Source: Macrostomum hystrix
Lineage: Eukaryota; Animalia; Platyhelminthes
NCBI GenBank assembly: GCA_950097015.1
Contig: CATNEN010000038.1
Coordinates: forward strand, 31,062,001 to 31,126,000
Length of the DNA: 64,000 nucleotides
Direction of reading: 5' to 3'
The notes below the pieces were generated by a model. The model saw only the letters and a program-made list of their open reading frames with translations, did not search any database and was not told the origin of the DNA. Made by a program: the position numbers and the translations under genes. The first letter of the stretch is position 1, and every line of letters begins with the position of its first letter. Positions 1,859-64,000 of the stretch are shown piece after piece.

Positions 1859-1930
1859 TCTATTTTTACACTCAATATATGCAGAAATACCTTTAATTTA
1901 TGCCGCAATAGCCCTTCGCCTAAGCCTCAC

Positions 1931-13662: not shown

Positions 13663-14008
13663 ATAATATAATAATAGTTGCAGGAGGACTGCGGGCAATG
13701 GCACATAATTTGGTGACACTAGACCCGCAGCCAGCGAGGAGGCAATCCTGCCCATTCCGCTGACTCCTGAGCACACATGTACACAGATAATGTACGCAGG
13801 CACTCGCTCACACAGCGTCTCATCGTCAGGCTGTGTACACTTTCACTGTGCCTTGAACTTTGGCCCTCAACGGCCTAAATTGCACGACAAGCCCCCAAGT
13901 CTTCTCTCCCAAGCCGGCTGCGCACCAAATGAGTGTGGCCTTGCCTCGGAATCGAGCTCAGGGACCCTGGTTGCGGGTTTTTGCGTTGACCGCTCTGTTA
14001 CACCCCCC
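13663..14008 (-). mobile_element. SINE family A copy
   Basis: Colinear homology to 4310-4613; tRNA-like head at right, (TAA)n tail at left. Confidence 0.8.
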
Positions 14009-20130: not shown

Positions 20131-20651
20131 TGGTTAGGGCTGCTTCACATATAAAAAGGCATATTAACGTCTGTCTAGCATAAGTTTCATTGGTACACTG
20201 ACATAGGCTCGAGCATGTAAGGAGGCATTTCCATATACACTTCTACTGACCACACGGGTCTAAAGATAAGATTCATTTTAAAGACAGTATGGACAGACAC
20301 TTCATTGCCAGCTGTACAGTCAAAGATACGAAATTCCATTCCTATTCCCAACCAATCTAAAAGATCGTAGCTATGTACATAGAGAGGAGGAGGTTGTCCG
20401 TACAGTCGCAATGTACATAGAGTTTTGCCTGGCCAAGTCCAAAAGCCTTAATTATTCAATGGAGAATGGAAATTCCCCGAAAACTCATGGACTATTGAAC
20501 CAAAAACATGCTATTGAAGAGATAAGGCTCAATTCTTTTAATCTCTTTCTCTATTAGATTTCTCTCTACCGCAAGCTCAACAAATTCATTCTAAAATTGT
20601 ATTGTATTTTTTTTGTGTTTGTCAGAAGAAACCCAAATAGAGGAAGTCATC

Positions 20652-40700: not shown

Positions 40701-43700
40701 GCTGCTGCTTTGCTCGAGTACCCATAGGCCTACCGTCGGTGTCTAGAAATCTAGGATGTTGGCAGGATAATCTAGGTAAGGTTTTATTAAACTAACCTTA
40801 ATCTTGTATTTAATCTAATCAGCACCTGTCCCTAATCTCGCTCAAATCCTGACTCAAATCTCACCTTATCCCTTAGATTCAAAGTTATGATCGAGAGGTC
40901 GGGGGTTCGAATTTCAGGCCGAGGGAAACGGACTGTGCCCCTGAGCACACACTTGTGTAGCACAAAAAATGTCAGACCCCCTTGGCAGCTATACTGTTAA
41001 TTCTTGGCGCTATGGAACACTTCGAAACAAAATAAATTTTCTCATCTATAACGACATCAAACATACCTGGGCGTGAGCACATTATAACGCGAGCTGCTCT
41101 GCTCAACATCTAGCAAAGGTTGTTCGCGCGTTGTCAAGCGAATATTGTACTTCTTCAGGTAGTATTCTTCGAAGCTTTCGTAGGCGCTGGTTGGGAATGG
41201 CGAGGCCGGTGTTAGATCCCAGCGAACCTGTCAGTTTTTGGGCTTGCTCATGTCAGTGAGAAAGCAACTAAATCACAGATCCTGTCTGTGACCATGTTTT
41301 TGTCTTTAGTCTTATCACATCACCATTGACTAATCTCACTCTATTACGGTCTCGAATTTCATACTTAAATCTGCGTCTCTAACCTCAGCCATAATAATAA
41401 TAATTGCAGGAGGGCCGCGGGCGATGGCACATCAATTGATCAACATCTGCCCTGACTTTCTCATTGGAGGTTGGCCCCTTAAGGGCGAAAATTGCACGAC
41501 AAGCCCCAAAGCCTTCTCTCCGCGGCAGCACCACAAATAAATGTGGCCTTGACGTCGAATCGAGCTCATGGACCTTGATGCGAGAGGCAAACGCGTTGAC
41601 CGCTCTGCCACCGAACCCCCTAATCTCTACCTTATTCTTGACTAAAGTTTGACCCCATTATTGACACAAATCTGACTCCATTCCTGTCTCAAATCTCATT
41701 CCATTCCTGTCTCAAATCTCACCCCATTCCTGTCTCAAATCTCATTCCATTCCTGTCTCAAATCTCATTCCATTCCTGTCTCAAATCTCATTCCAGTCCT
41801 GTCTCAAATCTCACCCCATTCCTGACTCAAATCTCATTCCATTCCTGTCTCAAATCTCATTCCATTCCTGTCTCAAATCTCACCCCATTGCTGACTCAAA
41901 TCTCACCCCATTCCTGACTCAAATCTCACCCTAATCCTCACTCAAATCTCACCCATTCCTGACTCAAATCTCACCTTATTCCTCACTCAAATCTCACCCA
42001 TTCCTGACTCAAATCTCACCCTATTCCTCACTCAAATCTCACCCTATTCTTGACTCAAATCTCACCCCATTCCTGTCTCAACTCTCATCCTATTTATGAC
42101 TCAAATCTCACCCCATTCCTGTCTCAAATCTCAACCCATTCCTGACTCAAATCTCACCCCATTCCTGTCTCAAATCTCATCCCATTCCTGACTCAAATCT
42201 CATTCCAGTCCTGTCTCAAATCTCACCCCATTCCTGACTCAAATCTCATTCCATTCCTGACTCAAATCTCACCCTATTCCTGTCTCAAATCTCATCCCAT
42301 TCCTGACTCAAATCTCATTCCATTCCTGTCTCAAATCTCACCCCATTCCTGACTCAAATCTCACCCCATTCCTGACTCAAATCTCACCCCATTCCTGTCT
42401 CAAATCTCACCCCATTCCTGACTCAAATCTCACCCTATTCCTCACTCAAATCTCACCCCATTCCTGACTCAAATCTCACCCCATTCCTGACTCAAATCTC
42501 ACCCCATTCCTGACTCAAATCTCATCCCATTCCTGACTCAACTCTCATCCTATTTATGAATCAAATCTCACCCTATTTATGAGTTAAGTCAATTCAAGTA
42601 AAATTTACCTGGCTGACAAAGTAAAACTGCGGCTGATCAAAATTTCTATACGACGGCACAATGACGCAATCGTTGAAATCTTCAACCCGAAATTTAAACG
42701 GCTTCTCTGGTCGAATCTCGCATGGCGGAGGCGCGTCAGAGGCCGCGTCGGACACCGAGGAGGTCACAACGCGTTTAATCAGATCCCAATCTAGCTGCCA
42801 GTTTGAGCACTCCTCAGTGTTCTCACCGGCGCACTCGGCAACTGGACAGCGAATAAGGAGGCTCACCAACGGTGTGAATGGCGACAAATCAAAGTTGGCC
42901 AGCATGCTGACCTCTTTTTCTAATCGAAGCACGCGTTGAAATAGGATCCGGTGAAACTGCAGCAGCAGGTCGCGTTGGTCTGAGGTGAGAACCAGGGAAT
43001 CAGACACCAGTGGAAAGTCTACATCCGTCTGGAATTGGAAATTTAAGCACTTTTGAAATTTGAGTTAAGCTCACCCAGCAATTGTTCATCTCATCTGGTT
43101 TCTTGTTATCTTATCCAGCCTGTGTTTATTTTTATCTGGATTGTGCTTATTTCACCCGGTTTGTGTTTATTTTCAACTGGATTGTGTTTATTTTCAACTG
43201 GATTGTGTTTATTTTCAACTGGAATTTGTTTATTTCACCCGGTTTGTGTTTATTTTCAACTGGAATTTGTTTATTTCACCTGGTTTGCGTTTATTTTCAA
43301 CTGGATTGTGTTTATTTTCAACTGGATTGTGTTTATTTTCATCCAGCTTGTGTTTATTTTTAACTAGATTGTGTTTATTTCATCCAGCTTGTGTTTATTT
43401 TCAACTGGATTGTGTTTACTTCATCCAGTTTGTGTTTATGTCGGATTGCTTATAAATAAATTGCTAATGAATACACACGTTTCCCCTTACTGCCACTGTT
43501 TATCTCCTCAGGTTTGTGTTTATCTCCTCCGGTTTGTGTTTATCTTCTCCGGTTTGTGTTTATCTCCTCAGGTTTGTGTTTATCTCCTCCGGTTTGTGTT
43601 TATCTCCTCCGGTTTGTGTTTATCTCCTCCGGTTTGTGTTTATCTCCTCCGGTTTGTGTTTATCTCATCAGAATCTCATTTTGTGAAAATCAACACAATT

Positions 43701-46700
43701 GCTGATTACAAAGTGCTTAACCTAAAAGTACAACAGCACCCGCAGTACCCTGGCATCACTCACTTCTCCCTGTCTGGGATAAAGGCAGAACAGCGGCAGG
43801 CCGGCGGGCAGAGGATCGCGCAGGATCAGACCAAACGATCGATCATTCGGCGCAGACTTGGCCGCATCGTCGGCTGCGGCCACCTCAGCTGATGGCATTG
43901 CCCAGACATGCTCGGGTCTCAGCCGGATCCTGTACAGTCGGCAGGCTTCGTTTGCAGCCGGAACCCCGGAGGTCAGCTGGGCAGCCAGTTGTTTCGGATA
44001 AACCTGACGACGCTTGGAGCCGCCGATAGCTACTGCAGCCATGCCACCGGGCCCTGGCAACATCAGCGACGCGGCTGCGGCGTCCCCAACTAGAGGCGAA
44101 GCTGACAGGCTCTGTTGAGCGTGATTTACCAGCTCCTCCTTGCTGAATGGCTTCAGGCTCGAGTCCAGCTGGCCAGCCGAGTGCAGCGCCCGGACGCAGG
44201 CCAACGCGGCGTTGGCCTTGGCGGCCTGAACTGTTGAACGCCAGGAGCCGACAGAGGACTGCCGAACCGGCGAGTTCATGGGCAGCCGGAGCTCGCACCT
44301 GCAGTTTGGAAGTAGATTCCCAGCAATGTAACTGGCTCTGAAAACTCATTTTACCTCAAGTCTATCCCACTGATCCCCATTTATCCCAGATCTATTTTGC
44401 TGATCCCCATTTATCCCAGATCTATCTCACTGATCCTCATTTATCCAAGATCTGTCTCACTGATCCTCATTTATCCCAGATCTGTCTCACTGATCCCCAT
44501 TTATCCAAGATCTGTCCTACTGATCCCCATTTATCTCAGATCTGTCTCACTGATCCCCATTTATCTCAGATCTGTCTCATTGATCCCCATTTATCCCAGA
44601 TCTGTCTCACTGATCCCCATTTATCACAGATCTGTCTCACTAATCCCTATTTATCCTAGATCTGTCTCACTGATCCCTATTTATCCCAGATCTGTCTCAC
44701 TGATCCCCATTTATCTCAGATCTGTCTCACTGATCCCAATTTTATCCCAGATCTGTCTCACTGATCCCCATTTATCCTAGATCTGTCCTACTGATCCCCA
44801 TTTATCCCAGATCTGTCTCACTGATCCCCATTTTTCTCAGATCTGTCTCACTGATCCCCATTTATCTCAGATCTGTCTCACTGATCCCCATTTATCCCAG
44901 ATCTGTCTCACTGATCCCTATTTATCCAAGTTCTGCCTCACTGATCCCCATTTATCACTAAATCTACTGATCTAAATACATTCCAAAACTCACAAACCCA
45001 CTCACCTGTAGGCCGCAGCCTGGCCAGGTCGAGTCTCTATTCGCCAAAGCGGCACCAGGCTGGCGAACACATCCGATGGCAGTCGGGCGCAGTAGCGATT
45101 CACAATGGGAATAGCGGCATCGGCTGTCACTGATGGACCCGAAGGACCGAACGGGGCAAAGATTTCCGCATTATCAAATTGAGCAGACTCAAATTGGCTC
45201 GTGTCAGTCACCACGGCACCGCCGCTGCGTAGCAACAGCTCCTCGGTAGCTTTAAATGCGCCGTGACTAGCAATGAATGTCGAGTCTAACGGTGTCACAA
45301 TGGTGGCGTATGTGGAATTAAACGACCTAGCCCGATTCTTGGAATGAAAATAGGAATTAAAAGTGCGCGGCGGATTGAACCGAACAACCAGATTGCATTT
45401 TGGCAGGTCGCCGCGACTTTCCATAGCTTCCGTCACTACTAGGAGGTTGGCTTCGCCCTGCGGTGACAGGAAATGAGAAAGGACTCGAAAATCAGCGGTC
45501 TGCATTTGCCTGTCATTATGATCACGGAGCAGTATAATTCTGCCTGTTTTTGCGTCTGTTGAATCTGTAACTCTGCCTGTTTTTGTGTCTGTTGAATCTG
45601 TAACTCTGCCTGTTTTCTGTGTCTGTTGAATCTGTAACTCTGCCTGTTTTTGTGTCTGTTGAATCTGTAACTCTGCCTGTTTTTGTGTCTGTTGAATCTG
45701 TAACTCTGCCTGTTTTTGTGTCTGTTGAATCTGTAACTCTGCCTGTTTTTGTGTCTGTTGAATCTGTAACTCTGCCTGTTTTTGTGTCTGTTGAATCTGT
45801 AACTCTGCCTGTTTTTGTGTCTGTTGAATCTGTAACTCTGCCTGTTTTTGTGTCTGTTGAATCTGTAACTCTGCCTGTTTTTGCGTCTGTTGAATCTGTA
45901 ACTCTGCCTGTTTTTGTGTCTGTTGAATCTGTAACTCTGCCTGTTTTTGTGTCTGTTGAATCTGTAACTCTGCCTGTTTTTGTGTCTGTTGAATCTGTAA
46001 TTGTGTCTGTTTTTCTGTCTTTTTTGTGTCTGTCGATTCTGTTTTCCATCTGCTGAAGTCTGTAACTCAATCTGTAATGCATCTGTTGAAGTCTGTTATT
46101 CAGTCTGTAATGCATCTGTTGAAGTCTGTTATTCAGTCTGTAATGCATCTGTTGAAGTCTGTTATTCAGTCTGTAATGCATCTGTTGAAGTCTGTTATTC
46201 AGTCTGTAATGCATCTGTTCAAGTCTGTAAATTAGTCTGTAATGCATCTAAGTCATCTAAATCAAAAGTCCAATTTTGCATCTAACAAACCTGTCTAAAC
46301 TTCTTGAGATAATCCGTAATCCTCTGCTGCTTAGGCCGGGTCACAAGCGAGAACATGTACGCAGGCTTAATAAAGAAGAAATCCGGATCCCAAATGCACA
46401 CTTCGTCTAACAGTTTACAGAGGCCGTAGGCTGTAAAACAATCTTTAACAAACACCAGCGCGCTTAGCCGCTCTGTTGGCTCCTCCGATGGGCACTTTGG
46501 CACCACCTTGTAGGGCAGACAGTTGGCATTGTTCAGCTCGGTGATTTCGACACCACCGCCGATGCTACGACCGATGCTATCGCCGTTCAAATCGTCGTCA
46601 TCGTCGGAGTCAGTGGACGCGGCGTCGCTCAGATCGACTAATTCGCTATTGCCGGCCGGTTTAATGCGAACGGCGCTGTTTCCATAGCAACCATCGCCGT

Positions 46701-49700
46701 CGCCTCCAAAGGAGTCGCTGATGAATTCTATGCTGAATTCGGTGCGCGGACGAAATCTGCCCAGCAGGTCCAGCAGCCGATGCACATTCGGTGGCACCAC
46801 GCGACGAAAGTCTTCTACGTCAATGAATTCTTCTTGCACAGCGTGGAATCGCTTCTGCAGCACGGCTAGCTGGGTGACGGTGGAGCGAACCAGACACCGG
46901 GCCAACTGGTCACAATCGGCCAAGAGCTCCTGCTCCAAACTCACCTGACAGTCACAAATGAGGATAAGGATGGTTCGAGTCCCAAACTGATGAGGATCTG
47001 GGAGATTCGAGTCCCAGTCTGATGAGGATCTGTGAGATTCGAATCCCAGTTTGATGAGGATCTGGGAGATTCGAGTCCCAGTCTGATGAGGATTTGTGAG
47101 ATTCGAATCCCAGTCTGATGAGGATCTGGGAGATTCGAATCCCAGTCTGATGAGGATCTGTGAGATTCGAATCCCAGTTTGATGAGGATCTGGGAGAATC
47201 GAGTCCCATTACGATGAGGATCTGTGAGATTCGAGTTCTAGACTGATGAGAATCTGTGAGATTCGAATTCCAGTTTGATGAGGATCTGAGAGATTCGAGT
47301 CCCAGTCTGATAAGTAGGCTCTGGTGTCTAACAAAGCATAGCCAACTCACCAAGTGCTTGAGGCAGACCCTGGCAATGACATTGCAGCCCCAAGGTCCCA
47401 GGTTATCCAGGCCATTCAGGCACTGGCGTAGGGCCTTGATGCAGAACTGCTTGGCCTCGGGACACTTTGGCGGTGAGACTGTGAACTCCTCACTGAGATC
47501 CAGCAGCCAGTCTAGGTGGGATTGAATGAGCTCCCTCAGGCCACTGTACAATCCGAATGCGTCATCGGGCGCTGGACAGTCCAGCAGCTCTTCGTCTGGT
47601 TGGCCGCCGTGAATCAAAGCCGACAGCACGTCCGAGGCGAATGTGACGGAACAGTTGAAAGTGGCCTTCAGGCCTGCTATGAGATCCGACAGGCAGGGAC
47701 CCTGCAGTGGTCAATGGATTGGATGACTGTGAAATGAGGATTTAGGATTCAAGGATTCTCAAAATTAGGATTTGGGATTCTAGGATGCTTAAACTGAGTA
47801 TTCTGGGATTATAGGATGCACAAGTTAAGGATTTTAAATTCTAGGATGCTCAAATTAGAAACATAGGGACGGTATAATGAGGATTAAGGATTCAAGGATT
47901 CTCAAAATGAGGATTTGAGATTCTAGGATGCTTAAACTGAGAGGATTTGGGATTCTAGGATGCTTAAACTGAGAGGATTTGGGATTCTAGGATGCTTAAA
48001 CTGAGAGGATTTGGGATTCTAGGATGCTTAAACTGAGAGGATTTGGGATTCTAGGATGCTTAAACTGAGAGGATTTGGGATTCTAGGATGCTTAAACTGA
48101 GAGGATTTGGGATTCTAGGATGCTTAAACTGAGAGGATTTGGGATTCTAGGATGCTTAAACTGAGAGGATTTGGGATTCTAGAATGCTTAAGCTAAGAGG
48201 ATTTGGGATTCTAGGATGCTTAAACTGAGAGGATTTGGGGTTCTAGGATGCTTAAATTTTAGGAATTGGGATTCTAGGATGCCTTAATTAGCTAAAGACC
48301 TAGGATCTAACTAAGATGCTTTACATGAGAAGCCAGTTTCGAGCGGTAAGCTCACCTGAGCGCCGGTGAGTCCCTGCAACAGTTCAGCAGAGCTACCAAC
48401 AAACTGAACGGGCTGCAGTCTGTCCAGTAGGCCGCGTATCAAACGACCATCTGGACCTTCGCTATCAGCGTACAATTCCGCATTTTCCAGTACAACAAGT
48501 CGACTTCCCAACAATGAGCCATTGAAAGTTGACTTGTTAGGCTGCGAATCGCCTAGGCTGGCGTGCAATAGAGCAGGTGTTGTTACCAGAATTGAAGCAC
48601 GCGTTGAGCTGCTGCTGTTGCTGCATTGTTGAGTATGCTCAACTGCTGCCAGCCAGGGTAGATGACGGTTCAGTGTGGCCGCTATCGTCTGGCAGTGGCT
48701 CTCTGGTGAGCAAATGATAAATGTTCCGATGTACTTTTATTTATGAAGACACTTCATAAATAATAATACTTCATAAATCCCTAAGTTCCCCATGAACAGC
48801 CCTAGCAACTAAACTGAAGTTCCCAATGAACAGCCCTAGCAACCAAACTGAAGTTCCCCATGAACAGCCCTAGCAACTAAACTGAAGTTCCCCATGAACA
48901 GCCCTAGCAACCAAACTGAAGTTCCCCATGAACAGCCCTAGCAACCAAACTGAAGTTCCTCATGAACAGCCCTAGCAACTAAACTGAAGTTCCCCATGAA
49001 CAGTCCTTAGCAACCAAACTGAAGTTCCCCATGAACAGCCCTAGCAACTAAACTGAAGTTCCCCATGAACAGCCCTAGCAACCAAACTGAAGTTCCCCAT
49101 GAACAGCCCTAGCAACCAAACTGAAGTTCCCCATGAACAGCCCTAGCAACTAAACTGAAGTTCCCCATGAACAGTCCTTAGCAACCAAACTGAAGTTCCC
49201 CATGAACAGCCCTAGCAACTAAACTGAAGTTCCCCATGAACAGCCCTAGCAACCAAACTGAAGTTCCCCATGAACAGCCCTAGCAACCAAACTGAAGTTC
49301 CCCATGAACAGCCCTAGCAACTAAACTGAAGTTCCCCATGAACAGCCCTAGCAACTAAACTGAAGTTCCCCATGAACAGCCCTAGCAACCAAACTGAAGT
49401 TCCCCATGAACAGCCCTAGCAACCAAACTGAAGTTCCCCATGAACAGCCCTAGCAACCAAACTGAAGTTCCCCATGAACAACCCTAGCAACCAAACTGAA
49501 GTTCCCCATGAACAGCCCTAGCAACTAAACTGAAGTTCCCCATGAACAGCCCTAGCAACCAAACTGAAGTTCCCCATGAACAGCCCTAGCAACCAAACTG
49601 AAGTTCCTCATGAACAGCCCTAGCAACCAAACTGAAGTTCCTCATGAACAGCCCTAGCAACCAAACTGAAGTTCCCCATGAACAGCCCTAGCAACCAAAC

Positions 49701-50231
49701 TGAAGTTCCCCATGAACAACCCTAGCAACCAAACTGAAGTTCCTCATGAACAGCCCTAGCAACCAAACTGAAGTTCCCCATGAACAGCCCTAGCAACCAA
49801 ACTGAAGTTCCCCATGAACAGCCCTAGCAACCAAACTGAAAAGCAGTATAGAACAGCCTAGATATGCAATCAGTAACTAACCAGACTGGTGCAGATAGAC
49901 AACAGGTGGAGTGGCAATTGGAGCTCGCTGTTCACTAGCAGCCTGCAGTTCTGCAAGAGCATCACGAATTACACTGCAGAGTACAAAGTCGATGCAGGTC
50001 TGGCTCTCTGTGCAGACTATGCCGCTGACTCTGCCACGAATGCTGTCTAGCAGTTCATACTGTGTGAGGATTTCACAAATTAACTGCATAAAATAGGCAT
50101 TTTAAAAGGGTTAAATAAAATCAAAACATGTAACTCACATAGTATGGTACTGGAGTGAACTGATTGTCTGGCACATTCTCCAGTATCTTGGCGACCATCT
50201 TTTTCTCAATGCTAGATGCTGGCTTGCGCAT
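34684..50231 (-). CDS. DICER1: Endoribonuclease Dicer (Dicer-1-like), 16 exons, ~1806 aa
   Basis: Exons 50231-50139, 50059-49882, 48702-48356, 47701-47351, 46944-46291, 45457-45006, 44298-43764, 43028-42609, 41227-41067, 40750-40078, 39473-39101, 38305-37777, 36768-36552, 35886-35733, 35624-35549, 34891-34684 join in frame (5421 nt). Hel2 [14 protein letters not shown]283 [23 protein letters not shown], RNase IIIa ERLETVGDS/ADSVEA, IIIb [15 protein letters not shown], ds[22 protein letters not shown]. Exon 2 acceptor could alternatively be 50083. Confidence 0.95.
34910..35370. repeat. ~21-bp GGATT-rich minisatellite, Dicer intron 15
   Basis: (GGATTATTGGGATTGTGATTTT)-like units with higher-order grouping. 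Confidence 0.9.
36008..36510. repeat. ~11-bp minisatellite (TGGGTCAAGAG/T), Dicer intron 13
   Basis: Tandem copies, G-tract rich on the plus strand. Confidence 0.9.
36844..37075 (+). mobile_element. 5'-truncated non-LTR retrotransposon 3' end in Dicer intron 12
   Basis: 12-bp TSD AATCTATCAGAA (36832-36843, 37076-37087); (AAGT)-type tail; GC-rich; one frame ends ..[16 protein letters not shown]..stop, resembling a LINE ORF2 terminus. Confidence 0.6.
37078..37740. repeat. 30-bp minisatellite (ATCAGAATGGGATTTCAAATCCATAGATTY), Dicer intron 12
   Basis: 12 homogeneous copies followed by a diverged 30-bp variant block. Confidence 0.95.
38450..38952. repeat. ~30-bp minisatellite (GGGAGATCTGAAATGGGATTATTTTATGAT), Dicer intron 11
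   Basis: About 17 copies. Confidence 0.95.
39505..39958. repeat. 24-bp minisatellite (GATTCTAGCTGCGATTCTTGCTTC), Dicer intron 10
   Basis: About 19 copies. Confidence 0.95.
40875..40990 (+). mobile_element. tRNA/CORE-like SINE fragment in Dicer intron 9
   Basis: GAGGTCGGGGGTTCGAATT (B box) followed by GTGCCCCTGAGCA, as in CORE-type heads. Confidence 0.45.
41391..41620 (-). mobile_element. SINE family A copy (internally deleted), Dicer intron 8
   Basis: Head and tail homologous to the other copies; (ATA)n tail. Confidence 0.75.
41650..42580. repeat. 23-bp minisatellite (CCCCATTCCTGACTCAAATCTCA), Dicer intron 8
   Basis: About 39 copies. Confidence 0.95.
43118..43667. repeat. Related 21-bp and 20-bp minisatellites (TTGTGTTTAT core), Dicer intron 7
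   Basis: Two adjacent sub-arrays. Confidence 0.92.
44368..44955. repeat. 30-bp minisatellite (TGATCCCCATTTATCCCAGATCTGTCTCAC), Dicer intron 6
   Basis: About 19 copies. Confidence 0.95.
45538..46248. repeat. Two related 33-bp minisatellites (TCTGTTGAA core), Dicer intron 5
   Basis: Sub-arrays 45538-46000 and 46050-46248. Confidence 0.95.
46972..47312. repeat. 32-bp minisatellite (GAGATTCGAATCCCAGTCTGATGAGGATCTGK), Dicer intron 4
   Basis: About 10.5 copies. Confidence 0.93.
47735..48285. repeat. 32-bp minisatellite (GAGGATTTGGGATTCTAGGATGCTTAAACTGA), Dicer intron 3
   Basis: Homogeneous core 47935-48260 with degenerate left flank. Confidence 0.93.
48782..49840. repeat. 34-bp minisatellite (AAGTTCCCCATGAACAGCCCTAGCAACYAAACTG), Dicer intron 2
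   Basis: About 31 copies. Confidence 0.96.
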
Positions 50232-51014
50232 TGTTTTTAATTAGCTGGAAATATTTAAAGATGGTGAATTAAACAATGATCTATCTAGATAACTGTTGAA
50301 AACTGTGACAAACAAAGAAATTCATGAAAAGAAAGACAATATAGTAGGTAAATATGGTTCAGAAAATATTTAAGAAGGCAAACTAAAATGTTTGAACATG
50401 GCCTAAGAAACAAACAAATTTATATAATGACATGTGATTACACAATAACACCTACACATAAGTAACCAAACTATTAGTCAGATAAGTTATATTAGAAAAT
50501 AAAAATTGCATTATAAATAAAAAGATAGCATATTCTAGGACAAGGTGTATACTCAATATGATAGACAGATTTACTTAATTTTCTTGTATGTTTTTCATTT
50601 AGGTATGTCTAGTGAACATTGTATATACAAAAGTTTATGATTTGTCTTAGTACAGCTGGCATGTTATAGCCAAAAGAAAAAACTGTGCAAAGTAGCAACA
50701 CGTGTAAGAATAATATATACTAACTAAGCAGCATGCTTAAGATGGAATATTTTTGTTATTTGGCATTAGCATTGTCTAAATAATACTATAGCCTACAGCA
50801 ATATGTAGGCTTATTGACTATTGATTATTTAGCTAACTATATTTATCTACCAAGACAAATCTGACTAGGCCAGGCCCTAGGCCTAATAAACAGAACAATA
50901 TATCTTATATAAATGAACCAATATTATCCATCACAGACAGACTCATGGGACTCATAGAGAGTCAAATTTTTTGTAATTGAAGTATAATCACTTTTTAAAA
51001 GCATAGTATATATA

Positions 51015-52787
51015 CTAGCAAAAGTTTTGCCCCCCTTTGGGGAGCAGAAATACTTTTCATTCGTCTAGTAAATACTTTTTAGCCGCTGAATTTACAGCTT
51101 TTTAAAGCTACAATGAACCCCCAGTTGACAATGATCACCCAGTTGACAATGATCCCTCAGTTCATGATGATCACCCAGTTGACAATGATCCACCAGTTGA
51201 CAATGATCCCCCAGTTGACAATGCTCCCCCAGATGACAATGATCCCCCAGATGACAATGATCCCCCAGTTGACAATGATCCCCCAGTTGACAATGATCCC
51301 CCAGTTGGCCATGATCCCCTAGTTGACAATGATCCCCCAGTTGACAATGATCCACCAGTTGACAATGATCCCCCAGTTGACAATGCTCCCCCAGATGACA
51401 ATGATCCCCCAGATGACAATGATCCCCCAGTTGACAATGATCCCCCAGTTGACAATGATCCCCCAGTTGGACATGATCCCCTAGTTGACAATGATCCCCC
51501 AGTTGATGATCATCCCCCAGTTGACAATGCTCCCCCAGATGACAATGATCCCCCAGTTGACAATGATCCCCCAGTTGATGATGATCCCCCAGTTGACAAT
51601 GCTCCCCCAGTTGACAATGATCCCCCAGTTGACAATGATACCCCAGTTGACAATGATCCCCCAGTTGGCCATGATCCCCTAGTTGACAATGATCCCCCAG
51701 TTGATGATCATCCCCCAGTTGACAATGCTCCCCCAGATGACAATGATCCCCCAGTTGACAATGATCCCCCAGTTGATGATGATCCCCCAGTTGACAATGC
51801 TCCCCCAGTTGACAATGATCCCCCAGTTGACAATGATCCCCCAGTTGACAATGATCCCCCAGTTGACAATGATACCCCAGTTGACAATGATCCCCCAGTT
51901 GACAATGCTCCCCCAGATGACAATGATCCCCCAGATGACAATGATACCCCAGTTGACAATGATCCCCCAGTTTAGCCATGATTCAGACTCTGGTTTAGCC
52001 ATGATTTAGACTCTGGTTTAGCCATGATTCAAACTCTGGTTTAGCCATGATTCAAACTCTGGTTTAGCCATGATTCAAACTCTGGTTTAGCCATGATTCA
52101 AACTCTGGTTTAGCCATGATTCAGACGCTGGTTTTGCCATGATTCAAACTCTGGTCTAGCTATGATTCAGACTCTGGTTTAGCCGGTGTTCTATGATTTA
52201 TGATATTTTATTTACGAAATGAAAAAAATAAATTAAAATAATCTTCAATCACTACTGGCTGAAAATTAGTCTAAAAGATTTGACGCAGTGCAGAATCGAA
52301 CCCTAGCCTAGCCTAACTTATTCCTAGTGCCTACACATCGGCTATTCCGACTGTTGGTTAGAGGGTGCAGAAATCAGCCTTATAAAATGAATTCTCAAAG
52401 TTCTGGCTTTGTACAATGAAGTAAGAAAATAGAGTACACTCAGTCTCGCGGTTGGTTGTGTACATTTATTTCCAATTTGTCTCCAGAGTGCAGGCTTCAA
52501 ATTCAATCAGCTAGGGGTTGTTGCGCAATTTGACGATGCAATTCTAATTCAGTGGCTGTCAGTGAAATTCTCAATAGGCCAAGATGGTTTGACCTTTAAA
52601 AAAATCATGTTTTTCAAATATTTAATCCCTTAAGCAATAAAGTTAAGCTTAATAAAAATATGTGTATAATTGTCCCCATATTTGGCGTCTTTTAGTGAAG
52701 AAATAGTAAAAATCGGTTGAGCCGTTTAAAAATCGATCGTGCATACATATATATATATATAGATAGTTTTCATTTTTAGTATATAGA
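51015..52787 (-). mobile_element. Non-autonomous Helitron carrying 18-bp and 23-bp minisatellites
   Basis: Minus strand starts TCTATATACTAAAA..(TA)n..AACGGCTCAACCGATTTT and ends with hairpin GCTCCCC-AAA-GGGGGGC, a short spacer, then CTAG|T; the 5' flank is T rather than the canonical A. Confidence 0.65.
51110..52184. repeat. 18-bp (CCCCAGTTGACAATGATC) and 23-bp (TTTAGCCATGATTCAAACTCTGG) tandem arrays
   Basis: About 47 and 9 copies, adjacent, inside the Helitron. Confidence 0.95.
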
Positions 52788-54406: not shown

Positions 54407-57400
54407 TTATCTTCCAGTCAGATGCTCGCTTGTCCATTCGTCGCTCCAACGGCATGGCGGAGCGCTGGCGTCGCACATCACGACTGGCGTGTCAGGCGAA
54501 CGAGCTGGCAACAATGGCTCTTTGGGTCGCTGACCTATGCCAGGAAAGGTGGCATAGTGAAAGCGCTGGGTTAGTGTGACAGCGCGACCGGATTCCACCT
54601 GGCAATGTAATTGTGTGCAGCTGACAGCACAGACGCATCTGAAGGTCGCCGACGGCTGTTCAGTCCATGGACTGAAGGGACGCCACACCTATCCTTAACT
54701 ATCCTTAAAGTAATTCTGATTACTTTAAAATGATGCTCTAATCACTAGGCTTCAACCCCTAGAGTATTTTACAATGTTATTGTGAAATACTGTGTACACG
54801 GTCATAAAGTGGCATTACGGGAATCAACTGTGCACAAAGCACTCGCAGTGGCATTGTAGGAGACGCAGCATTTAGGGTAGAGTCTGTGTACGGCACAGAA
54901 AATTAGGATAGAAGACTAAGATAGAATTCTTACAGTGGTAACATCAGTCCACTCACCCAACTAGAGTTATAAGCCGCCGTTGGTTCACAAACCCCAGTGT
55001 CCGGAGCCAGCTGTGTCACCAGCAGTGCCCTGGACTTCCTCGGCCTAAGCCAGATGCCAAGTCGTGGTAGATGAAATTCTCCGCCGCGAGTCACAGTGTC
55101 TAGAAACACTCGCACAATGGCAAAGATCCCACCGCTGTCACCATCGTTGGCGTCACAGTCGAGTCGCTCGGAGAATCCCTGACCTAGAGGATGGCTAGTG
55201 ACATCCAGCCTGCCGGCATGACTGGCTGGAAGGCCCATCGATTTGAGAAATCGATCAGCCAATGGACCGGCCGTGAAGCGACTCTCGCTTGGATAGAACA
55301 CCGTGGAGCGAGTCCAGTTGAATCGCAGCCAACTGCCGGCCTTCGCTGATAGACTGGCATTCAGACAGCGAGTGCCCGGAGTGAAGTCAGCCGATGACAT
55401 ATGCTGGTAAACCATGATTAAACAAATAACTGAATTTAGTTGACTTTATTTAACAACCGGGTTGCAGCCTTGGCAGCACCGACTGAGTTAGTTATAAAAA
55501 TATGAAACAGTTTCCTGTTCAGTCCATGGACTGGTGGAGACACCACACCCGCCCACAATTAGTATATCTAACGCTGTACCTATTTAAAAGTTGGGTGAAC
55601 TGAAGCAAAGCATTGTTAAGTATCTTGCTAAAGGGCACAACTTGTTCAAATCAAGTCGGGAATCGAACCCCCGACCTTCAAGTTATGAGTCCGACGTTTT
55701 AACCGTCAGGCTTTCACTATGCTGTACCATTATCTTAAAGGTGCATGCATAGCCATAAGTGAGAGCTACAAAGCATGGTCATTGTGTAATATCAACTTAT
55801 CAATGACAATGACAAACAGATGACAATAACCCAGGCAGAAAGAGATGCAATATGCATTATACTTGGACTCACACGTGCGCGCGGAACGCCAGTCTCATCG
55901 GCTAGCAGACGCAGCATAGTCGACTCGGCATCGAAGCACACGATTGGTCGCCTGCCAGACACGGCCTCCAATCGTTTGAAATGAACGGCAGCCAGATTAT
56001 CTGACTCGACGTCCGATAGTAGCTCGTCGAACATGTACACCTGGAAGGAAAAATAGTCAGAGATTGCTAATTACAAAACTATTACATGCTACAGGACAGT
56101 TCACTGACTGCTGAACATTTGAAAGATTTTTTTGTTCTAAGGTTTCGTATGTTTTCGTAATTTTTTTGTTTGGTCGGATTGCCTCAGCGTATATTAATGC
56201 ATAGTAAAGTACCCATGCTAATGATAATAATTGCAGGAGGGCTGCGGGCAATGGCACGTCATTTGGTGACACTAGACCTGCAGCCAGCGACGAGGCAATT
56301 CTGACCATTTCACTGACTGCTGATTACACACGCACACAGATACTGTACGCAGGCACTCGCTCAGACAGGTAAGCGTGACTTTTTCATCGTCAAGCAGTGT
56401 ACATTTCACTGCGCCTTGGAGCATGAATGTGGCCTCGACGCTGAATCGAGCTTAAGGACCTTGGTGCGACAGGCAAACGCGTTAACCGCTTTGCCACTCA
56501 CCCCCTAAAGTACCCGTTTGCCATCGACATTGCAGGACGTCGGTGACATCGGGATAGTGAGCCGACGTCGGATTGTTGTGCGGCGTTAAGCGCTGCAATC
56601 CACTACATGCCAAAGATAATAAGTCACAGATCCGACTAATTTACTCTCTTCTAAACTCTGTTGCGCCTCAGGTGGCAAATAATGACAAGACTATTGGACA
56701 CCTTACCTGCACAGAGCTACCAGGCGCAGGTATCATTCGCTCCAGCTTGACGGGCGGAATGCGCCGACCATCTTGAAAGATCTTCTTCGGTTTGATGCCA
56801 AACAGGATCTGCTCTGTGGAGTCTTTGCCACCGGCTGGGCGAAGCATCGGCTGCTGATCGCGCTCCGCTTGGCGCACATCAGCCTCGGACATGACACGAA
56901 TTGGTGGCCTGTTGTTGGCGTCGCCTGGCGCATTTGGCTGGATTCGCTGCGGCGGCGGTGGCGCCTTCGACGCAGAAGCATCAGCGCCAGCAGCGAGCGG
57001 GTTTGTTTTCTTTGCCGGCTCAGCATTTGGTTGTGTCTTAGCAGCCTCAGTTTTGCCAGGTTTCGGTTTAGCAATAGGCTTAGGTTTTGGTGACACCGCA
57101 ATGCTTTCAGGTTGGTCCTGAGGTCTCACTGGAGGTGCGGAACTCGACGCTGCTAACAATTGACTACGACGGACTGTGGCCGCAAGTTCAGCTAGTTCAA
57201 CTGACAGTCGGTCAAGTTTCTGACGAAGATCTGTCAAAGAAAATTTAACAGAGTCCAGCTGGTTGACAGTCGCACTGCCAGATGCCGCGATTTCAGCAGA
57301 AGCTGACGCTTGCACAGAGGCAATGTCTCGTCGAATACCCTGGAGCGCCTGCTGAAGTGTACTGGAACGCTCTTTCGCATCATTCTCGTCTGACGAACAG

Positions 57401-57558: not shown

Positions 57559-58002
57559 CGCGTATTGCTCTGTCTAGTGTCTAGCTGAAATTACAATGCG
57601 CTGAGCTAGCAGTTCATTCACACTTCCTTAGTCTAATGAAATCTTCAAAAGTATCATTTATATAACAAAAACTGATAAATGCAACTCAACTGCTAGCCTA
57701 TAAAAATTAAACGTCTATTTGAATGTTTATTTTTAAGAACAATGTTAATTTGCGAACACAAGATAACAGCAAGTTGCTGAATACATTTCAGTTACCAAAA
57801 GCATAAATGCACTCAATTACATTTGCAGAAAAAAATTGGTTAAACATGAAAAATGCAGCACCTTCTATTTAAATTTTTTAACATAGAAATTCATACAAGA
57901 TTAGCACAGCAAAATGCGGAAATAAATCATTAAACCACAAGCAAAAACTAAAGAAAGTTTTTTTCAAATCGAGTGTTAGACCATGAACAGTCAAAAGTAC
58001 AT

Positions 58003-58730
58003 GGGGATATTTCAAATAAAAATCCCGTGTTTTAGAAAACTAGCTACATTTTTCTGCTCTATCCGATGAGACTTCCTCGGATTCACAAAGCATTGACATT
58101 GTCGAGATATTTAACGATTATCGTCGCGGCGTCTGGTGGCAAAAACCACCAATCTGGGCATAATTATTCTACTAACAAAATTTCTTCATGTAAAAATATC
58201 GGCAATTATTAATAATTATATTGTTAATTTTTACACTTGACTTGGGGGCTTGTCGTGCAATTTACAACCTTGAGGGCCAACCTCAAAGGCACAGTGAGAT
58301 TGTACACAGCCTGACGATGAGAAAGTCGGCAGATGTACACACCTGTGTGAGCGTGTGCCTGTGTACAGTACCTGTGTGCCTGTGTGCTCAGGAGTCAATC
58401 GAATTGCCTCCTCGCTGGCTGCGGGTCTAGTGTCACCAAATGATGTGCCATTGCCCGCAGCCCTCAGGCAGTTTATTATTATTTATAATTAGTTATTATT
58501 ACGGATACGCTATATCGGTTTAAATACAGCGCAATGTGGGTTCTCCTGTCACTGGAGTGTTCGACAATTATTGCTGAATAACTCGACGGTGCTGATGTCG
58601 GACGGCTTTGAAAGTTGGTTCATTGTACAAAGAGCGGAAAACTTTGATCCATTAGGTGCACTTTCAGGAAAATCGATCATCCGGTTTCGGAGCTGATGTG
58701 AAGCAGTCAGTGTGTATTTGAAATATCCCC
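58003..58730. mobile_element. Tc1/mariner-like MITE with a nested SINE-A fragment (58238-58500, +)
   Basis: Perfect 16-bp IR GGGGATATTTCAAATA/TATTTGAAATATCCCC plus degenerate internal inverted arms; superfamily inferred from TACA.GGGG left end. Confidence 0.65.
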
Positions 58731-58774
58731 GCTGTCATTCCACTGTTTACAAACTCAAATTTGCCTGCTCAATT

Positions 58775-61525
58775 TCACCTAGCCGAATAGTACTTTCGTC
58801 CGTTGGCATTGGAGACTCGAGCGTACCTGGCCAGCAGGGAGCCGGGTGTGATCTTGTCGTAGCACACCGGCTCCAGGTATGGCTGCAGCTCCTCTATGGT
58901 CCATTTGGCGCGGGCCTGCGATGTTGAACAATACAAGCGACTGGATAGCTGCTTCAGAACTACTTCAAGTAGTAATAATTTAAATATAGCACCATGAAGG
59001 GGTTTGCCCCTCACCTTGAAGAGCTCGGCAAATCTGGGCGCATGGCCATCGGGTAGCTGATCAGCTGGGAAATATCTAATAGTGGCGCTGGAGTCAGCAC
59101 TGCCTGATTCGCCAGCATCAGCAGCAGCAGTCGTGACCAGAGAGAGGCCAGACAGATGGTCCAAGCTGACTGTGGCCGCGTCCGAGACGGCCTCCTGCCA
59201 CAGAGGCAGGAACACCGACAGTTTGTAGGCTGAGGCCAAGCGCAGTAGAAAGTGACCAAAGGTGCGACTGATCTATGCAATCGCAGCATGGGAGAGCTGT
59301 GCTTTGACACAACACAGGGATGCACACTACTTATTGACACCTCTGCTCATCTAACACTGACAGTCTGACACCTCTGCTCACCTCACTGACAGTCTGACAC
59401 CTCTGCTAATCTCCCACTGACAGTCTGACACCTGTGCTCACCTCACTGACAGTCTGAAACCTCTGCTAATCTCCCACTGACAGTCTGACACCTCTGCTAA
59501 TCTCCCACTGACAGTCTGACACCTCTGCTAATCTCACTGACAGTCTGACACCCCTGCTTACCTCCATGACAGTATCAGTTTATAACCAGCTCAATAAACC
59601 TCCCAAAAGCTGATCAACCTACCAGTCGGGTGTCAAGCTCTACAACGGAGCATCCGCCGTCGCTAGCCATTTTAGCATGCAACTGCAGCACCCGTTGCGT
59701 CACCCTGGGATCGTACAGATCAGCCAAGGCGTCACAGGCCGGCCTGCAGGGCAGGGCATTCAACGGCCAGTCGTGTTCAACAGCCGCAGACAGCAGGGCC
59801 GACAGGGCCTGTTGTTGCAGATCGTCGTGAAGCAGGCGAATTCGACCGTCCAACTCGATGGCACCAACGGAATCCAACAGGCGGGACAACTCCGAGTCGC
59901 TCATCTTCAAAACAGAAAACGGTGAAAAGTGTCTGTTGATTTTCTGAACGTAAGCAGGTGTCAGACTGTCAGTGAGGTGAGCAGAGGTGTCAGACTGTCA
60001 GTGTGAGGTGAGAAGAGGTGTCAGACTGTCAGTGTGAGGTGAGCAGAGGTGTCAGACTGTCAGTGTGAGGTGAGCAGAGGTGTCAGACTGTCAGTGTGAG
60101 GTGAGCAGAGGTGTCAGACTGTCAGTGTGAGGTGAGCAGAGGTGTCAGACTGTCAGTGTGAGGTGAGCAGAGGTGTCAGACTGTCAGTGTGAGGTGAGCA
60201 GAGGGGTCAGACTGTCAGTGTGAGGTGAGCAGAGGTGTCAGACTGTCAGTGTAATGTGAGCAGAGGTGTCAGACTGTCAGTGTGAGGTGAGCAGAGGTGT
60301 CAGACTGTCAGTGTGAGGTGAGCAGAGGTGTCAGACTGTCAGTGTGAGGTGAGCAGAGGGGTCAGACTGTCAGTGTGAGGTGAGCAGAGGTGTCAGACTG
60401 TCAGTGTGATGTGAGCAGAGGTGTCAGACTGTCAGTGTGAGGTGAGCAGAGGTGTCAGACTGTCAGTGTGAGGTGAGCAGAGGGGTCAGACTGTCTGTGG
60501 GAGAGTAGCCAATATGAACCAAATGGTAGCAGAAGCTACCAACCTGAGCAATGCTTCTCAACTGCTCCATAGTAGGCGACGCAGCTCGAGCAGCAGCGGC
60601 AGTCGGGTTGTCGGCCTCTTCCTGCTCTTCAACCAGGCCGCGGTAGCAGGCGGCAGCTGGCAGGTGGCAGCGCAGAGCGGCCGGGCCCGGCTTCACCCGA
60701 CGCAACTCGGCGTAGCTGTGCTTCACAGCCGCTATGCTGCACCGGCGCACCTTGGGTGAGAGGACAGGTAGGGTGAGAGGGCAGTTAGGGTGAGTGGATA
60801 GGTAGGGTGAGAGGACAGGTAGGGTGAGAGGACAGGTAGGGTGAGAGGACAGGTAGGGTGAGTGGACAGGTAGGGTGAGTGGACAGGTAGGGTGAGAGGA
60901 CAGGTAGGGTGAGAGGACAGGTAGGGTGAGAGGACAGGTAGGGTGAGAGGACAGGTAGGGTGAGAGGACAGGTAGGGTGAGTGGACAGGTAGGGTGAGAG
61001 GACAGGTAGGGTGAGTGGACAGGTAGGGTGAGAGGACAGGTAGGGTGAGTGGACAGGTAGAGTGAGGGGACAGGTAGGGTTAGTGGACAGGCAGAATAAA
61101 GTAATGGTAGTGTAAAGTTATAACACTGCATTAATAAGAAATACCATCCACAGGATGATTGCACTCACCTGAATGTCATTAAGCTCAGATTCCACAGCAG
61201 CAGTATCAGGAGGCATGATGGCATCAGTGGACAGCATCAAGCTATTAGAGGTTTCAACTTCTCGCACCTCAAATGTGCAGTCTGCAGTACACAACACAGC
61301 CTCCTGATCAGGCAAGCCTTTCACTTCCAGTCGATCTTCACCCTTCATCAGCCTAGTCAAAATAGCATCATCTAGTTCTAGCAGCATCACTTGATCATCA
61401 AGAAGCTGTGGCGCAAAGTGCACACTCTGAATTACAGGTTGCACTTCTGATACAGAAATTTTAGCCATAGACATTAGGCCAATTAGGTCCTCCTGGGTCC
61501 GATTTTCCAGTAGCTTGTTTTCCAT
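58775..61525 (-). CDS. DSCC1: Sister chromatid cohesion protein DCC1, 4 exons, ~447 aa
   Basis: Exons 61525-61169, 60750-60544, 59904-59623, 59272-58775, all phase 0. LLELD, KGLPDQEAVLCTADCTFEVREVETSNSLML, RFAELFKVR, KWTIEELQPYL, LLARYAR...KYYSAR. Confidence 0.92.
59335..59572. repeat. ~30-bp minisatellite (CACTGACAGTCTGACACCTCTGCTCACCT), DSCC1 intron 3
   Basis: About 8 copies; reverse complement of the intron 2 array. Confidence 0.93.
59950..60495. repeat. 31-bp minisatellite (GTGTCAGACTGTCAGTGTGAGGTGAGCAGAG), DSCC1 intron 2
   Basis: About 17 copies. Confidence 0.96.
60753..61091. repeat. 17-bp minisatellite (GGGTGAGAGGACAGGTA), DSCC1 intron 1
   Basis: About 19 copies abutting the exon 2 acceptor. 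Confidence 0.95.
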
Positions 61526-64000
61526 TTCAGCTTGAAAAAAATTTAAGTGAACATATTACAATCTCAATTATCTGGAGTTTTACTAGTTAAAATAGTTAAA
61601 TAAATAATGGAACATATATTTAACAGGGAAGGTTACTTATGGGTTAAAATTGCATAAAAAATATAGAACAACTAGAAAAAAACTTCTATTTTAGAAAAAG
61701 AGTTAGAAAAAGATTAACTACTTTATAAGTAAATTTAAAGTACCTACTGCTACAAAAATGTATTAGTCTTACTTAGATCTAACATCTACATTCTAACTGC
61801 TTGTTAAAGTTTAGAAAGATGCTATTTAATTATATCTTGTCTGTATTCACAAAGACTGCCTCTGCCCATATAAAATTCAGTGCCACACAGGGGGTCCATA
61901 GTGCACTTGGTGCACAATCAACATAAGAAATAATTTTATATCTTCACAAACCACAAAGAAAGTATGACAGTTGAGTAGCTAGCTAGGAAATTAGGGATAG
62001 AAGTTAAAGTTTCGTATCTATACCTACATGGATAATGATAGCTAGCAGCTTAAATAAGCTAAACCTTAATATTTTATAAGGCCCCAATTTTATTTTCTTT
62101 TTTTAGCTAGCCAAACAAGAAATGGCAGAGGACAAACAAAATCTTATTTTTGACTTCCCATATTGGTCATTGATCAATTCATGCACTAAACAGGATATAT
62201 GGTGACAGTCTTCAGCAAAAGTCTTTGTCAAAAGTGTTTTTGTAATTTATTGTTTTAATACTAATGTCATAATGTATTAAGGAGCCACAAAACATTCCAT
62301 GCTGATATGTTAATTTTCTTAATTTAATTACTTATAATAAACTTTCACTATGTTATTTATGCTATAACAAAATCTAGGACCATTAAAAGAAGGAGGGGCA
62401 CTTCACTTCATTTCTTACTTAATTTATTGAAGGCTGATTTTCACAGAAAAATGCTCTAGCAAGATAGTAACTTCTCACACTTTTCACATAAAAATGTTGA
62501 TAACTTTTATTGGAAGCAGATCAAATGCTGTTCTGTAACATATCTTGCAAATTGTGGTGCTTCTATGAATTTTAGAAAGTAGGCTAATTCATACATGTAT
62601 AATTGATCTTCATTTTTGGTTCATTTATCATGAAGCACAATACTTAGTCTATAACTATCTTATCACTAACTCTTTTAATTACTGTGGTACCCAAAAGCCA
62701 AAGAGCCCAATGTGATTGGCCATCCTTTGTGGTGCTTGAGCGCTGAAGCTCTTTGTGGTTATACTTTGTAATACTTCATGATGCATATTGTCATATGTTA
62801 ATTATATTGCCAAAAAATTTTCTTACTTTATACTTCCTATATCTTACTGTTGTTTATAATATATAAAAATAAAATACTTTTGACAGAAAGCCTTTTGACA
62901 AAAAGACCTGGAATCGGATAGGGGCCTATATGACACATTATTAGGGCCTATCTAGTAACTAAAAAACTGAAACTCTTGCTTATTGTGTAGCTTTCATAAG
63001 TATAAAAACGAGCAGAACAAATATGCATATGGACGCTATGCCGCCTATGCAAACTATTTAAATAGTGATCTAAAAGGTCGAAGTTAAAGCCAATGAAAAT
63101 ACACAACAAAAAGTTTGTAATGGTCGAAAATAAACTAATTAATATAAATGCACTATTGCTTTATTTAGGCCTAGTTAAAAAACCAACACACTTAGCGACT
63201 AGGTACTGACTCATATAACTATACTGGCATATAAACTATCAAGGCAATACATTTTAAAATCAAATCTTTCAAGAAATAAAAATGCTTAACTGAATAAGAT
63301 ACATTTGTATCAACATTAACACTCCGCGACTCGAACCACCACTTAAAGAACTTCAACGCGCTAATAGCTTTGTTCTAAGAAAATAGTAAGATTAAAACTG
63401 TTGGAATAGCCCAAATTCTGAGATATTTAAGAGTAGTAAAACAGCCGCTTTCACAAAAACTCGTTTATGCTAAAAGCGATAAAAATTAGTTACACTTCCA
63501 TTTTTAATTTATAATGTATCTCTGAGATTTATGTGTAAAACTTTAATAGTTAGGGTGAGCTTAAATGTAGGTTTGTAGCTCACGCAATAATATGCTTGCA
63601 ATAGCCTTTCTTTTGATTTGCAAAAAGCATGCGCAGTGACTTGCATTATACACTTAGCATTAAAAGCTAAAGGCTAACATTAAAAGCTAAAGTTGTATTG
63701 AAAGATTAAAATTTCCTACCAGAACAAAAATATCACCCATGATTCACTGTTTGACAACTTTGACGGGCAGCATAACCTGCAGCTGTGTTGTCGGTGCACC
63801 GATCCAAAAAACCAGTGTTCTCTCTCTTTCGTGCTCCCAAAGCTGGTTCAGCTTGGTTCCATGGGCGCGGGACGTAATGCCGACACAATGGAGTGCAATC
63901 TAGGTCCGAGCACATAATAAAGATCATGATCGTATATTTATACTCGCTCATAAAGCGCGCCTCCCTAGCTGAACAACAAGGCTCCTCGCAGCCGAAAGTT

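What the first reader, a model, noticed from the sequence alone, without database searches (positions are those of the whole stretch)
59335..60495. Mirror-image minisatellite arrays bracket DSCC1 exon 3: predicted fold-back switch for exon skipping or circRNA
Seen: intron 2 has ~17 x GTGTCAGACTGTCAGTGTGAGGTGAGCAGAG and intron 3 has ~8 copies of its reverse complement, each ending ~50 nt from the exon. The exon-proximal units share a private mirrored variant (CCTGCTTAC 59553-59561 / GTAAGCAGG 59950-59958), so one array was probably copied from the other across the exon. The enclosed exon (59904-59623) is 282 nt, phase 0/0, starts with ATG and has no in-frame stop. Established: complementary flanking-intron repeats drive back-splicing, skipping and ADAR editing. 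Inference: a >200-bp multi-register duplex could give an in-frame skipped DCC1, a 282-nt circle with an endless ORF, or endo-siRNAs, tunable by repeat copy number. Minisatellites would play the role Alu pairs play in primates.
Basis: partly seen in the sequence, partly recalled or inferred. Interest (0 to 1): 0.8.

Follow-up and report, generated by a model that had tools for sequence, protein, structure and literature searches.

The report
Inverted minisatellites flank flatworm DSCC1 exon
In a flatworm's DSCC1 gene, two mirror-image blocks of a repeat found at no other place in one DNA run enclose one exon and are predicted to pair in the unspliced RNA, but the assembled transcripts keep that exon, so this is likely a tolerated by-product of local repeat copying rather than a splicing switch.

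Summary
Observation confirmed; interpretation unsupported so far. In a Macrostomum-type flatworm (nearest hit M. lignano DCC1, 77%), introns 2 and 3 of DSCC1 hold 17.7 and 8 copies of a 31-bp unit in opposite orientation. One DNA run bridges all four array borders as assembled and shows no other locus with the unit, so this is a local inverted copy, not an Alu-like dispersed pair. A duplex of about 216 bp is predicted. Six spliced runs show only inclusion: exon 3-4 joint in 6 of 6, exon 2-3 joint in 4 of 6, skip and back-splice joints in 0 of 6. These are shallow contigs that drop rare forms. The 'suggestive' features are generic: exons 2, 3 and 4 are all phase 0/0 and stop-free as circles, and arrays lie 3-77 nt from splice sites because they grew inside ~100-nt introns. 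Neighbouring arrays in the window are often related, in either orientation; this is the closest pair. Skipping would delete about WH1 of Dcc1. Best reading: tolerated by-product (0.72); regulated switch about 0.1. The scan noted look-alikes in octopus and ray DNA, with the same verdict.

The parts
59335..59573 (-). Array A in intron 3: 8 units of 29-31 bp, G-rich on the sense strand, mean unit identity 0.90, worn units at both ends; likely the older array and donor of the copy
59950..60503 (+). Array B in intron 2: about 17.7 units, reverse complement of A, mean unit identity 0.97; likely the younger, expanded copy
59623..59904 (-). DSCC1 exon 3, 282 nt, phase 0/0; Pfam Dcc1 positions 127-211 of 319; about yeast Dcc1 156-256, i.e. 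WH1 plus about 25 residues before it
59553..59561 (-). Exon-proximal private variant in A; on the sense strand it reads as a donor-like GAG|GTAAGC 61 nt downstream of the used donor
59950..59958 (+). Exon-proximal private variant in B; inverted homology with A stops here (likely edge of the copied segment)
61169..61525 (-). DSCC1 exon 1, coding part from the ATG (357 nt, phase 0)
60544..60750 (-). DSCC1 exon 2, 207 nt, phase 0/0
59015..59272 (-). DSCC1 exon 4, 258 nt, phase 0/0; followed by an array-free 99-nt intron
58775..58915 (-). DSCC1 exon 5, coding part to the stop codon
60754..61091 (.). Unrelated 17-bp array in intron 1, ending 3 nt from the exon 2 acceptor

Best explanation
Two inverted blocks of one locus-private 31-bp minisatellite flank DSCC1 exon 3; they likely arose when a short piece of the intron-3 array was copied backwards into intron 2 and then expanded, and the predicted RNA duplex is likely tolerated, with exon 3 kept in the main mRNA. 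Shown: the inverted homology, its privacy in one DNA run, the inclusion joints, and frequent kinship between neighbouring arrays in the window. Inferred: the direction A to B; a template-switch or templated-insertion event followed by slippage; that exon 3 is recognised before or despite pairing (its splice sites lie 45-49 nt inside the loop, outside the duplex). Trace skipping, a trace 282-nt circle or A-to-I editing of the introns may occur as by-products; none was seen.
For: Only 9 contigs of DNA run X1 lie on 59150-60750 at 80% likeness, all 99% or more alike, none partly laid, no loose ends; depths fit local copy numbers. Shared proximal variant 1 of 8 and 1 of 18 units; B's first full unit is identical to one unit of A; A is more diverse, 0.90 against 0.97. 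Related neighbours are common: z>3 in 6 of 29 adjacent pairs direct and 3 of 29 inverted, against 8 and 11 of 351 distant pairs; aconitase-region arrays align at 66-70% over 1.3 kb. Arrays fill 20.6 of 64 kb. Spliced contigs carry exon 3: joint 59272/59623 in 6 of 6 spliced runs, 59904/60544 in 4 of 6, and one 1508-nt contig spans all five exons. All four introns are phase 0; non-array intron parts are 80, 85 and 111 nt, like the 99-nt array-free intron. Exon 3 covers about WH1.
Against: The geometry is that of known circle-forming minigenes, where 30-40 nt of inverted repeat suffices (PMC4201285), and the predicted duplex is far longer: -320 kcal/mol against a shuffle mean of -106, the strongest of 21 adjacent pairs. 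The RNA evidence is contigs of depth 3.5-11.5 from libraries not on record, which cannot show rare or non-polyadenylated forms. The 3' end of exon 3 maps near the WH1/WH2 border, so a skip product might fold. Human TERT shows that a lineage-restricted VNTR can drive skipping by RNA pairing (PMC3948165). No orthologous intron could be examined.
Confidence: 0.72

Rival explanations
1. Regulated fold-back switch: the A:B duplex loops out exon 3 and gives a skipped DCC1 lacking about WH1 and/or a 282-nt circle, tuned by copy number.
For: About 216 A-B pairs predicted; repeats 45-49 nt from intact splice sites; in-frame exon whose 3' end maps near a domain border; precedents in PMC4201285, PMC3948165 and PMC2533698.
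Against: The inclusion form is the one assembled in all 6 spliced runs laid. Phase and open circle frame are shared by exons 2 and 4. Hairpin strength does not predict circularisation (PMC4201285). Yeast needs WH1 and WH2 for cohesion, judged from C-terminal truncations; an internal WH1 deletion was not among the strains listed (PMC5376975). The pair looks young and local.
Confidence: 0.1
2. Protective masking: array A carries donor-like sites on the sense strand; the inverted copy B was kept because pairing hides them and protects the true exon 3 donor.
For: Three GAG|GTRAGC sites in A (59561, 59441, 59381); the first matches the generic donor consensus as well as the used donor (7 of 9 each; consensus recalled) and would add 61 nt with an immediate stop; predicted unpaired probability 0.12.
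Against: Other intronic arrays carry sense-strand donor-like words with no strong inverted partner: 29 AGGTR in the aconitase array 29876-30625, 28 and 15 GTRAG in the Dicer arrays at 41622 and 44361. If A is older, the gene worked before B existed.
Confidence: 0.07
3. The duplex is a source of endogenous siRNAs or an editing platform with a regulatory effect on DSCC1.
For: Long, about 89% complementary duplex with a 49-bp perfect stretch; young inverted repeats are the main A-to-I targets across animals (PMC9989829); planarian ADAR2 edits mRNA (PMC8797187).
Against: Both arms are intronic and leave with the introns; the unit has no target elsewhere in X1. The one contig from a spliced run that lies on array A (59404-59493, 23 sense adenosines) shows no difference, though it may be DNA.
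Confidence: 0.05
4. The arms are two insertions of a dispersed element, or the inverted ends of a foldback-type transposon that captured the exon.
For: Long inverted arms built of tandem units resemble foldback elements (recalled, no call); the 17-bp array of intron 1 does have relatives elsewhere in X1.
Against: No other locus with the unit in X1 or the window; the exon is native and collinear with M. lignano DCC1, 71% identity; no target-site duplication seen by eye.
Confidence: 0.04
5. Assembly artefact: one array was placed in the wrong orientation.
For: Tandem arrays are hard to assemble; no listed piece spans the whole stretch and B's interior is uncovered.
Against: X1 contigs bridge all four array borders in the assembled orientation with no difference, 36-68 nt into the arrays.
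Confidence: 0.02

Closest known systems
Inverted-repeat-flanked exonic circRNA loci (human ZKSCAN1, HIPK3; Liang and Wilusz 2014, PMC4201285)
   Same: Complementary repeats in both flanking introns close to intact splice sites.
   Different: There the repeats are dispersed Alu copies and the circle is shown; here the repeat is a locus-private tandem array and no circle was seen.
Human TERT intron-6 38-bp VNTR (PMC3948165; VNTR6-1 in PMC11830802)
   Same: An intronic minisatellite of similar unit length, narrow in lineage, able to pair within the pre-mRNA.
   Different: TERT has an abundant skipped isoform, one array over 1 kb from the exons, and compensatory-mutation proof; a later study invokes G-quadruplexes. 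Here there are two mirror arrays and only inclusion was assembled.
Inverted intronic Alu pairs that alter splicing and are edited (RABL5; Lev-Maor 2008, PMC2533698)
   Same: Oppositely oriented intronic repeats within 2 kb forming dsRNA.
   Different: That pair lies in one intron, comes from a million-copy family and shows editing; here the pair spans an exon, is private, and editing is untested.
Short templated inverted duplications and short-range template switching (PMC11724301, PMC7954356; search listing and abstract starts only)
   Same: A known way to make a short inverted copy of nearby sequence.
   Different: The yeast events are mostly 5-34 bp at a break; here the copy sits about 380 bp away and was then amplified. 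The mechanism is inferred.

Membership tests
Inverted-repeat-driven exonic circRNA locus | Complementary repeats of 30-40 nt or more in both flanking introns | tested here: met
Inverted-repeat-driven exonic circRNA locus | Functional splice sites on the enclosed exon, outside the duplex | tested here: met
   Both joints used in spliced contigs; sites 45-49 nt from the arrays
Inverted-repeat-driven exonic circRNA locus | Back-splice junction detected | tested here: inconclusive
   0 of 6 spliced runs; shallow contigs, library type not on record
Inverted-repeat-driven exonic circRNA locus | Circle depends on pairing (mutation and rescue) | not testable with these tools
   needs a minigene
VNTR splicing switch (TERT type) | Intronic tandem array predicted to pair within the pre-mRNA | tested here: met
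   (prediction only)
VNTR splicing switch (TERT type) | A substantial skipped isoform | tested here: inconclusive
   Skip joint in 0 of 6 spliced runs; inclusion is the assembled form
VNTR splicing switch (TERT type) | Copy number varies between individuals and changes splicing | not testable with these tools
   one DNA run only
Alu-like inverted pair | Arms belong to a dispersed high-copy family | tested here: not met
   No other locus in X1 at 80% likeness; depth fits local copies
Alu-like inverted pair | A-to-I editing in the arms | tested here: inconclusive
   One 90-nt contig, no difference, may be DNA
Foldback-type transposon carrying an exon | Other copies, target-site duplication, foreign passenger | tested here: not met
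   Single locus, native exon, no duplication seen by eye

The most novel reading that the evidence does not exclude
In Macrostomum, where most larger introns of this window carry their own minisatellite, local copy-invert-expand events make private inverted arrays without any transposon family; this pair folds DSCC1 pre-mRNA and yields a copy-number-tuned DCC1 lacking WH1, or a 282-nt circle with an endless frame, in some cells such as stem cells.
Probability: 0.1. Interest if true: 0.65.

Novelty: new member of a known kind. Interest (0 to 1): 0.27.

Why it matters
As a by-product it is a clean snapshot of how intronic minisatellites spread between neighbouring introns, and it shows that a 282-nt exon inside a predicted 200-bp duplex is still spliced in. 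It is a small natural minigene (1.3 kb, private repeat) in a genus with transgenesis (PMC5730564), so the question whether such duplexes force back-splicing can be tested directly. If a regulated isoform existed, it would show exon-looping repeats arising without a mobile family and acting on a cohesion and checkpoint gene.

Tried and rejected
No whole genome is held, so the genome-wide count of inverted pairs could not be made; the window gives 1 strong pair among 29 adjacent pairs. Related loci in metagenome contigs: none among 381 pattern matches, so no orthologous introns. No RNA holder listed on record; I treat six runs as spliced because they join exons at GT-AG borders. 7 of the 9 listed runs were laid (X5 and X8 not). 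No skip, back-splice or cryptic-donor joint in those contigs: contigs show presence, not absence. Rfam: 0 matches in 58000-62000. Hairpin-prone units as the cause of inversion: the A/B unit is unremarkable (stem 4, p about 0.4); 2 of 30 units have p<0.05 and the overall shift is small (3.7 against 3.3, single-base shuffles). Foldback element and misassembly: see rivals. Paper searches found no description of this locus or of mirror minisatellites in adjacent introns: searches (14 papers; 0; 11; 2; 6; 6), judged from listings; the library lacks most subscription papers and no supplements were read.

Full report
Observation. Array A (59335-59573) has 8.0 copies and array B (59950/59956-60503) 17.7 copies of a 31-bp unit. 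They are reverse complements: best ungapped arm 109 nt at 91%, 233 nt at 89% by BLASTN, longest perfect run 49 nt. This is not chance. Among 435 pairs of the window's 30 arrays, this pair shares 31 15-mers and only one other pair shares any; the unit-level z is 28 against 10.7 for the next pair. The private variant is real: GTAAGCAG stands in 1 of 8 units of A and 1 of 18 of B, each time the unit nearest the exon.

Gene and organism. Four of five exon translations hit Pfam Dcc1 in order (one weakly, E 0.045); exon 3 covers profile positions 127-211 of 319. The one homolog found with exon 1 is a Macrostomum lignano protein at 77%; exon 3 aligns to its residues 209-301 at 71%. The window is therefore from a Macrostomum-type flatworm (inference). 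Simple and tandem repeats make up 15% of the M. lignano genome (PMC5730564, passages), and the repeat content of two other species is described as not yet fully accounted for (PMC10468722, passages). Here arrays fill 20.6 of 64 kb, in introns of an Hsp90-family gene, aconitase, Dicer and DSCC1.

Assembly and privacy. In DNA run X1 one contig covers 59506-59985 without a difference, entering A by 68 nt and B by 36 nt; two others anchor the far borders. The inversion is thus in the reads, though X1 may be the source sample. At 80% likeness only 9 X1 contigs lie on 59150-60750, all 99% or more alike, none partly laid and with no loose end. Depth divided by the single-copy depth gives 2.0, 1.0, 2.2, 8.0 and 9.0 where the assembly predicts 2.0, 1.0, 2.2, 10.0 and 10.9. 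The unit is private to this locus as far as this run shows; by contrast the intron-1 array and a dispersed element near 58400-58650 draw many contigs from elsewhere. B's interior had no cover.

Origin. Inverted homology stops exactly at B's proximal GTAAGCAG, while A goes on into a worn unit. A's units are 0.90 alike, B's 0.97; B's first full unit is identical to one unit of A, and B's last unit carries A's GGGAGA variant. The simplest history is that a piece of A, one to a few units long, was copied backwards into intron 2 and expanded there (inferred). Short templated inverted duplications and short-range template switches are known processes (PMC11724301, PMC7954356; listing and abstract starts only). 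Local copying is not rare here: unit kinship at z>3 holds for 6 of 29 adjacent pairs in direct and 3 of 29 in inverted orientation, against 8 and 11 of 351 distant pairs (single-base shuffles, so the threshold is lenient), and arrays in the aconitase region align at 66-70% over 1.3 kb. The DSCC1 pair is the closest case.

RNA. Folding the sense strand pairs about 216 of A's 239 bases with B, mostly with B's middle units. The duplex of the facing 200-nt ends scores -320 kcal/mol against -106 for shuffles, the strongest of 21 adjacent same-gene pairs; the next is -144 against -73. These are equilibrium predictions. Of 9 runs listed, 7 were laid; six show spliced joints (five of organism A from two studies, one of a relative, organism B). 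The exon 3-4 joint appears in 6 of 6 and the exon 2-3 joint in 4 of 6; the other two contigs end in or at the start of exon 3. One 1508-nt contig spans all five exons. Skip, back-splice and cryptic-donor joints appear in 0 of 6. Depth is 3.5-11.5, library types are not on record and contigs drop rare forms, so this shows inclusion as the main form and says little about minor ones. One 90-nt contig from a spliced run lies on A with no difference at 23 sense adenosines, but may be DNA.

The supporting features are generic. All four introns are phase 0; exons 2 (207 nt), 3 (282) and 4 (258) are all 0/0 and all stop-free as circles, which follows for any symmetric coding exon. Only the opening ATG is particular to exon 3, and it is a methionine shared with M. 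lignano. Array-to-splice-site distances are 77 and 3 nt in intron 1, 40 and 45 in intron 2, 49 and 62 in intron 3; the non-array parts are 80, 85 and 111 nt, and the array-free intron 4 is 99 nt. The arrays likely grew inside ~100-nt introns, which puts them near every exon.

What skipping would do. Through M. lignano DCC1, exon 3 maps to about residues 156-256 of yeast Dcc1 (weak alignment, E 5.6e-5). Yeast WH1 is 182-252, and WH1 and WH2 are needed for cohesion as judged from C-terminal truncations (PMC5376975, passages). A skip product would lack WH1 and some 25 residues before it. It is most likely a loss-of-function form, but its 3' border is near a domain border, so it might fold.

Comparison. 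It works, on paper, like inverted-repeat circRNA loci, where 30-40 nt of pairing suffices but hairpin strength does not predict output (PMC4201285, passages); like the TERT VNTR, which drives skipping by RNA pairing (PMC3948165, passages; PMC11830802, abstract and outline); and like inverted Alu pairs (PMC2533698, passages). It is not shown to be a member of any: the circle and the skipped form are untested at depth, and the dispersed-family feature of Alu pairs is not met. Editing as a by-product is plausible (PMC9989829 and PMC8797187, passages). A third idea, that B masks three donor-like sites in A, is weakened by arrays with many sense-strand donor-like words and no strong partner. Earlier notes of this scan report look-alike arrangements in an octopus and in ray genomes and reached the same verdict; they are unchecked and not counted as support.

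Verdict. Real, non-random and local; likely a tolerated by-product of copy-and-expand repeat turnover (0.72). Regulated skip or circle 0.10, masking 0.07, small-RNA or editing role 0.05, mobile element 0.04, artefact 0.02. New member of a known kind; interest 0.27.

Noticed in passing
window 34944-51970: A Dicer gene on the minus strand (RNase III, platform, dimerisation, helicase C and partner-binding domains) with a different minisatellite in most introns; several share TGGGAT-type words in either orientation.
   Followed up: partly
window 18773-25015: Three consecutive arrays at the start of the aconitase gene are related (66-70% over 1.3 kb); the first two also pair weakly in inverted register (-144 against -73 kcal/mol) around a likely first coding exon: perhaps an older case of the same process.
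   Followed up: partly
window 60748-60770: The 17-bp array of DSCC1 intron 1 ends 3 nt from the exon 2 acceptor, so the repeat itself supplies the pyrimidine tract; the joint is used in spliced contigs.
   Followed up: partly
window 61526-61543: Spliced contigs stop at 61543 with 3 other letters in the piece, just upstream of an acceptor-like T-run plus CAAG 5 nt before the ATG; this would fit spliced-leader trans-splicing, common in Macrostomum. The places of the differences were not shown.
   Followed up: no
window 4310-4613, 13663-13907, 41391-41623, 56219-56508, 58239-58486: A dispersed ~250-bp element in both orientations, 70-85% alike between copies and at very high depth in X1; a better Alu analogue than the minisatellites. 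Copies at 56220 and 58282 are inverted and 1.9 kb apart.
   Followed up: no
window 1-5707, 9713-11299, 14582-15955: Hsp90-family gene (minus), an MFS transporter frame (minus) and an alkylglycerol monooxygenase-like frame (plus).
   Followed up: no
window 26159-26280: A local inverted repeat of about 120 nt (77%) inside the aconitase region.
   Followed up: no
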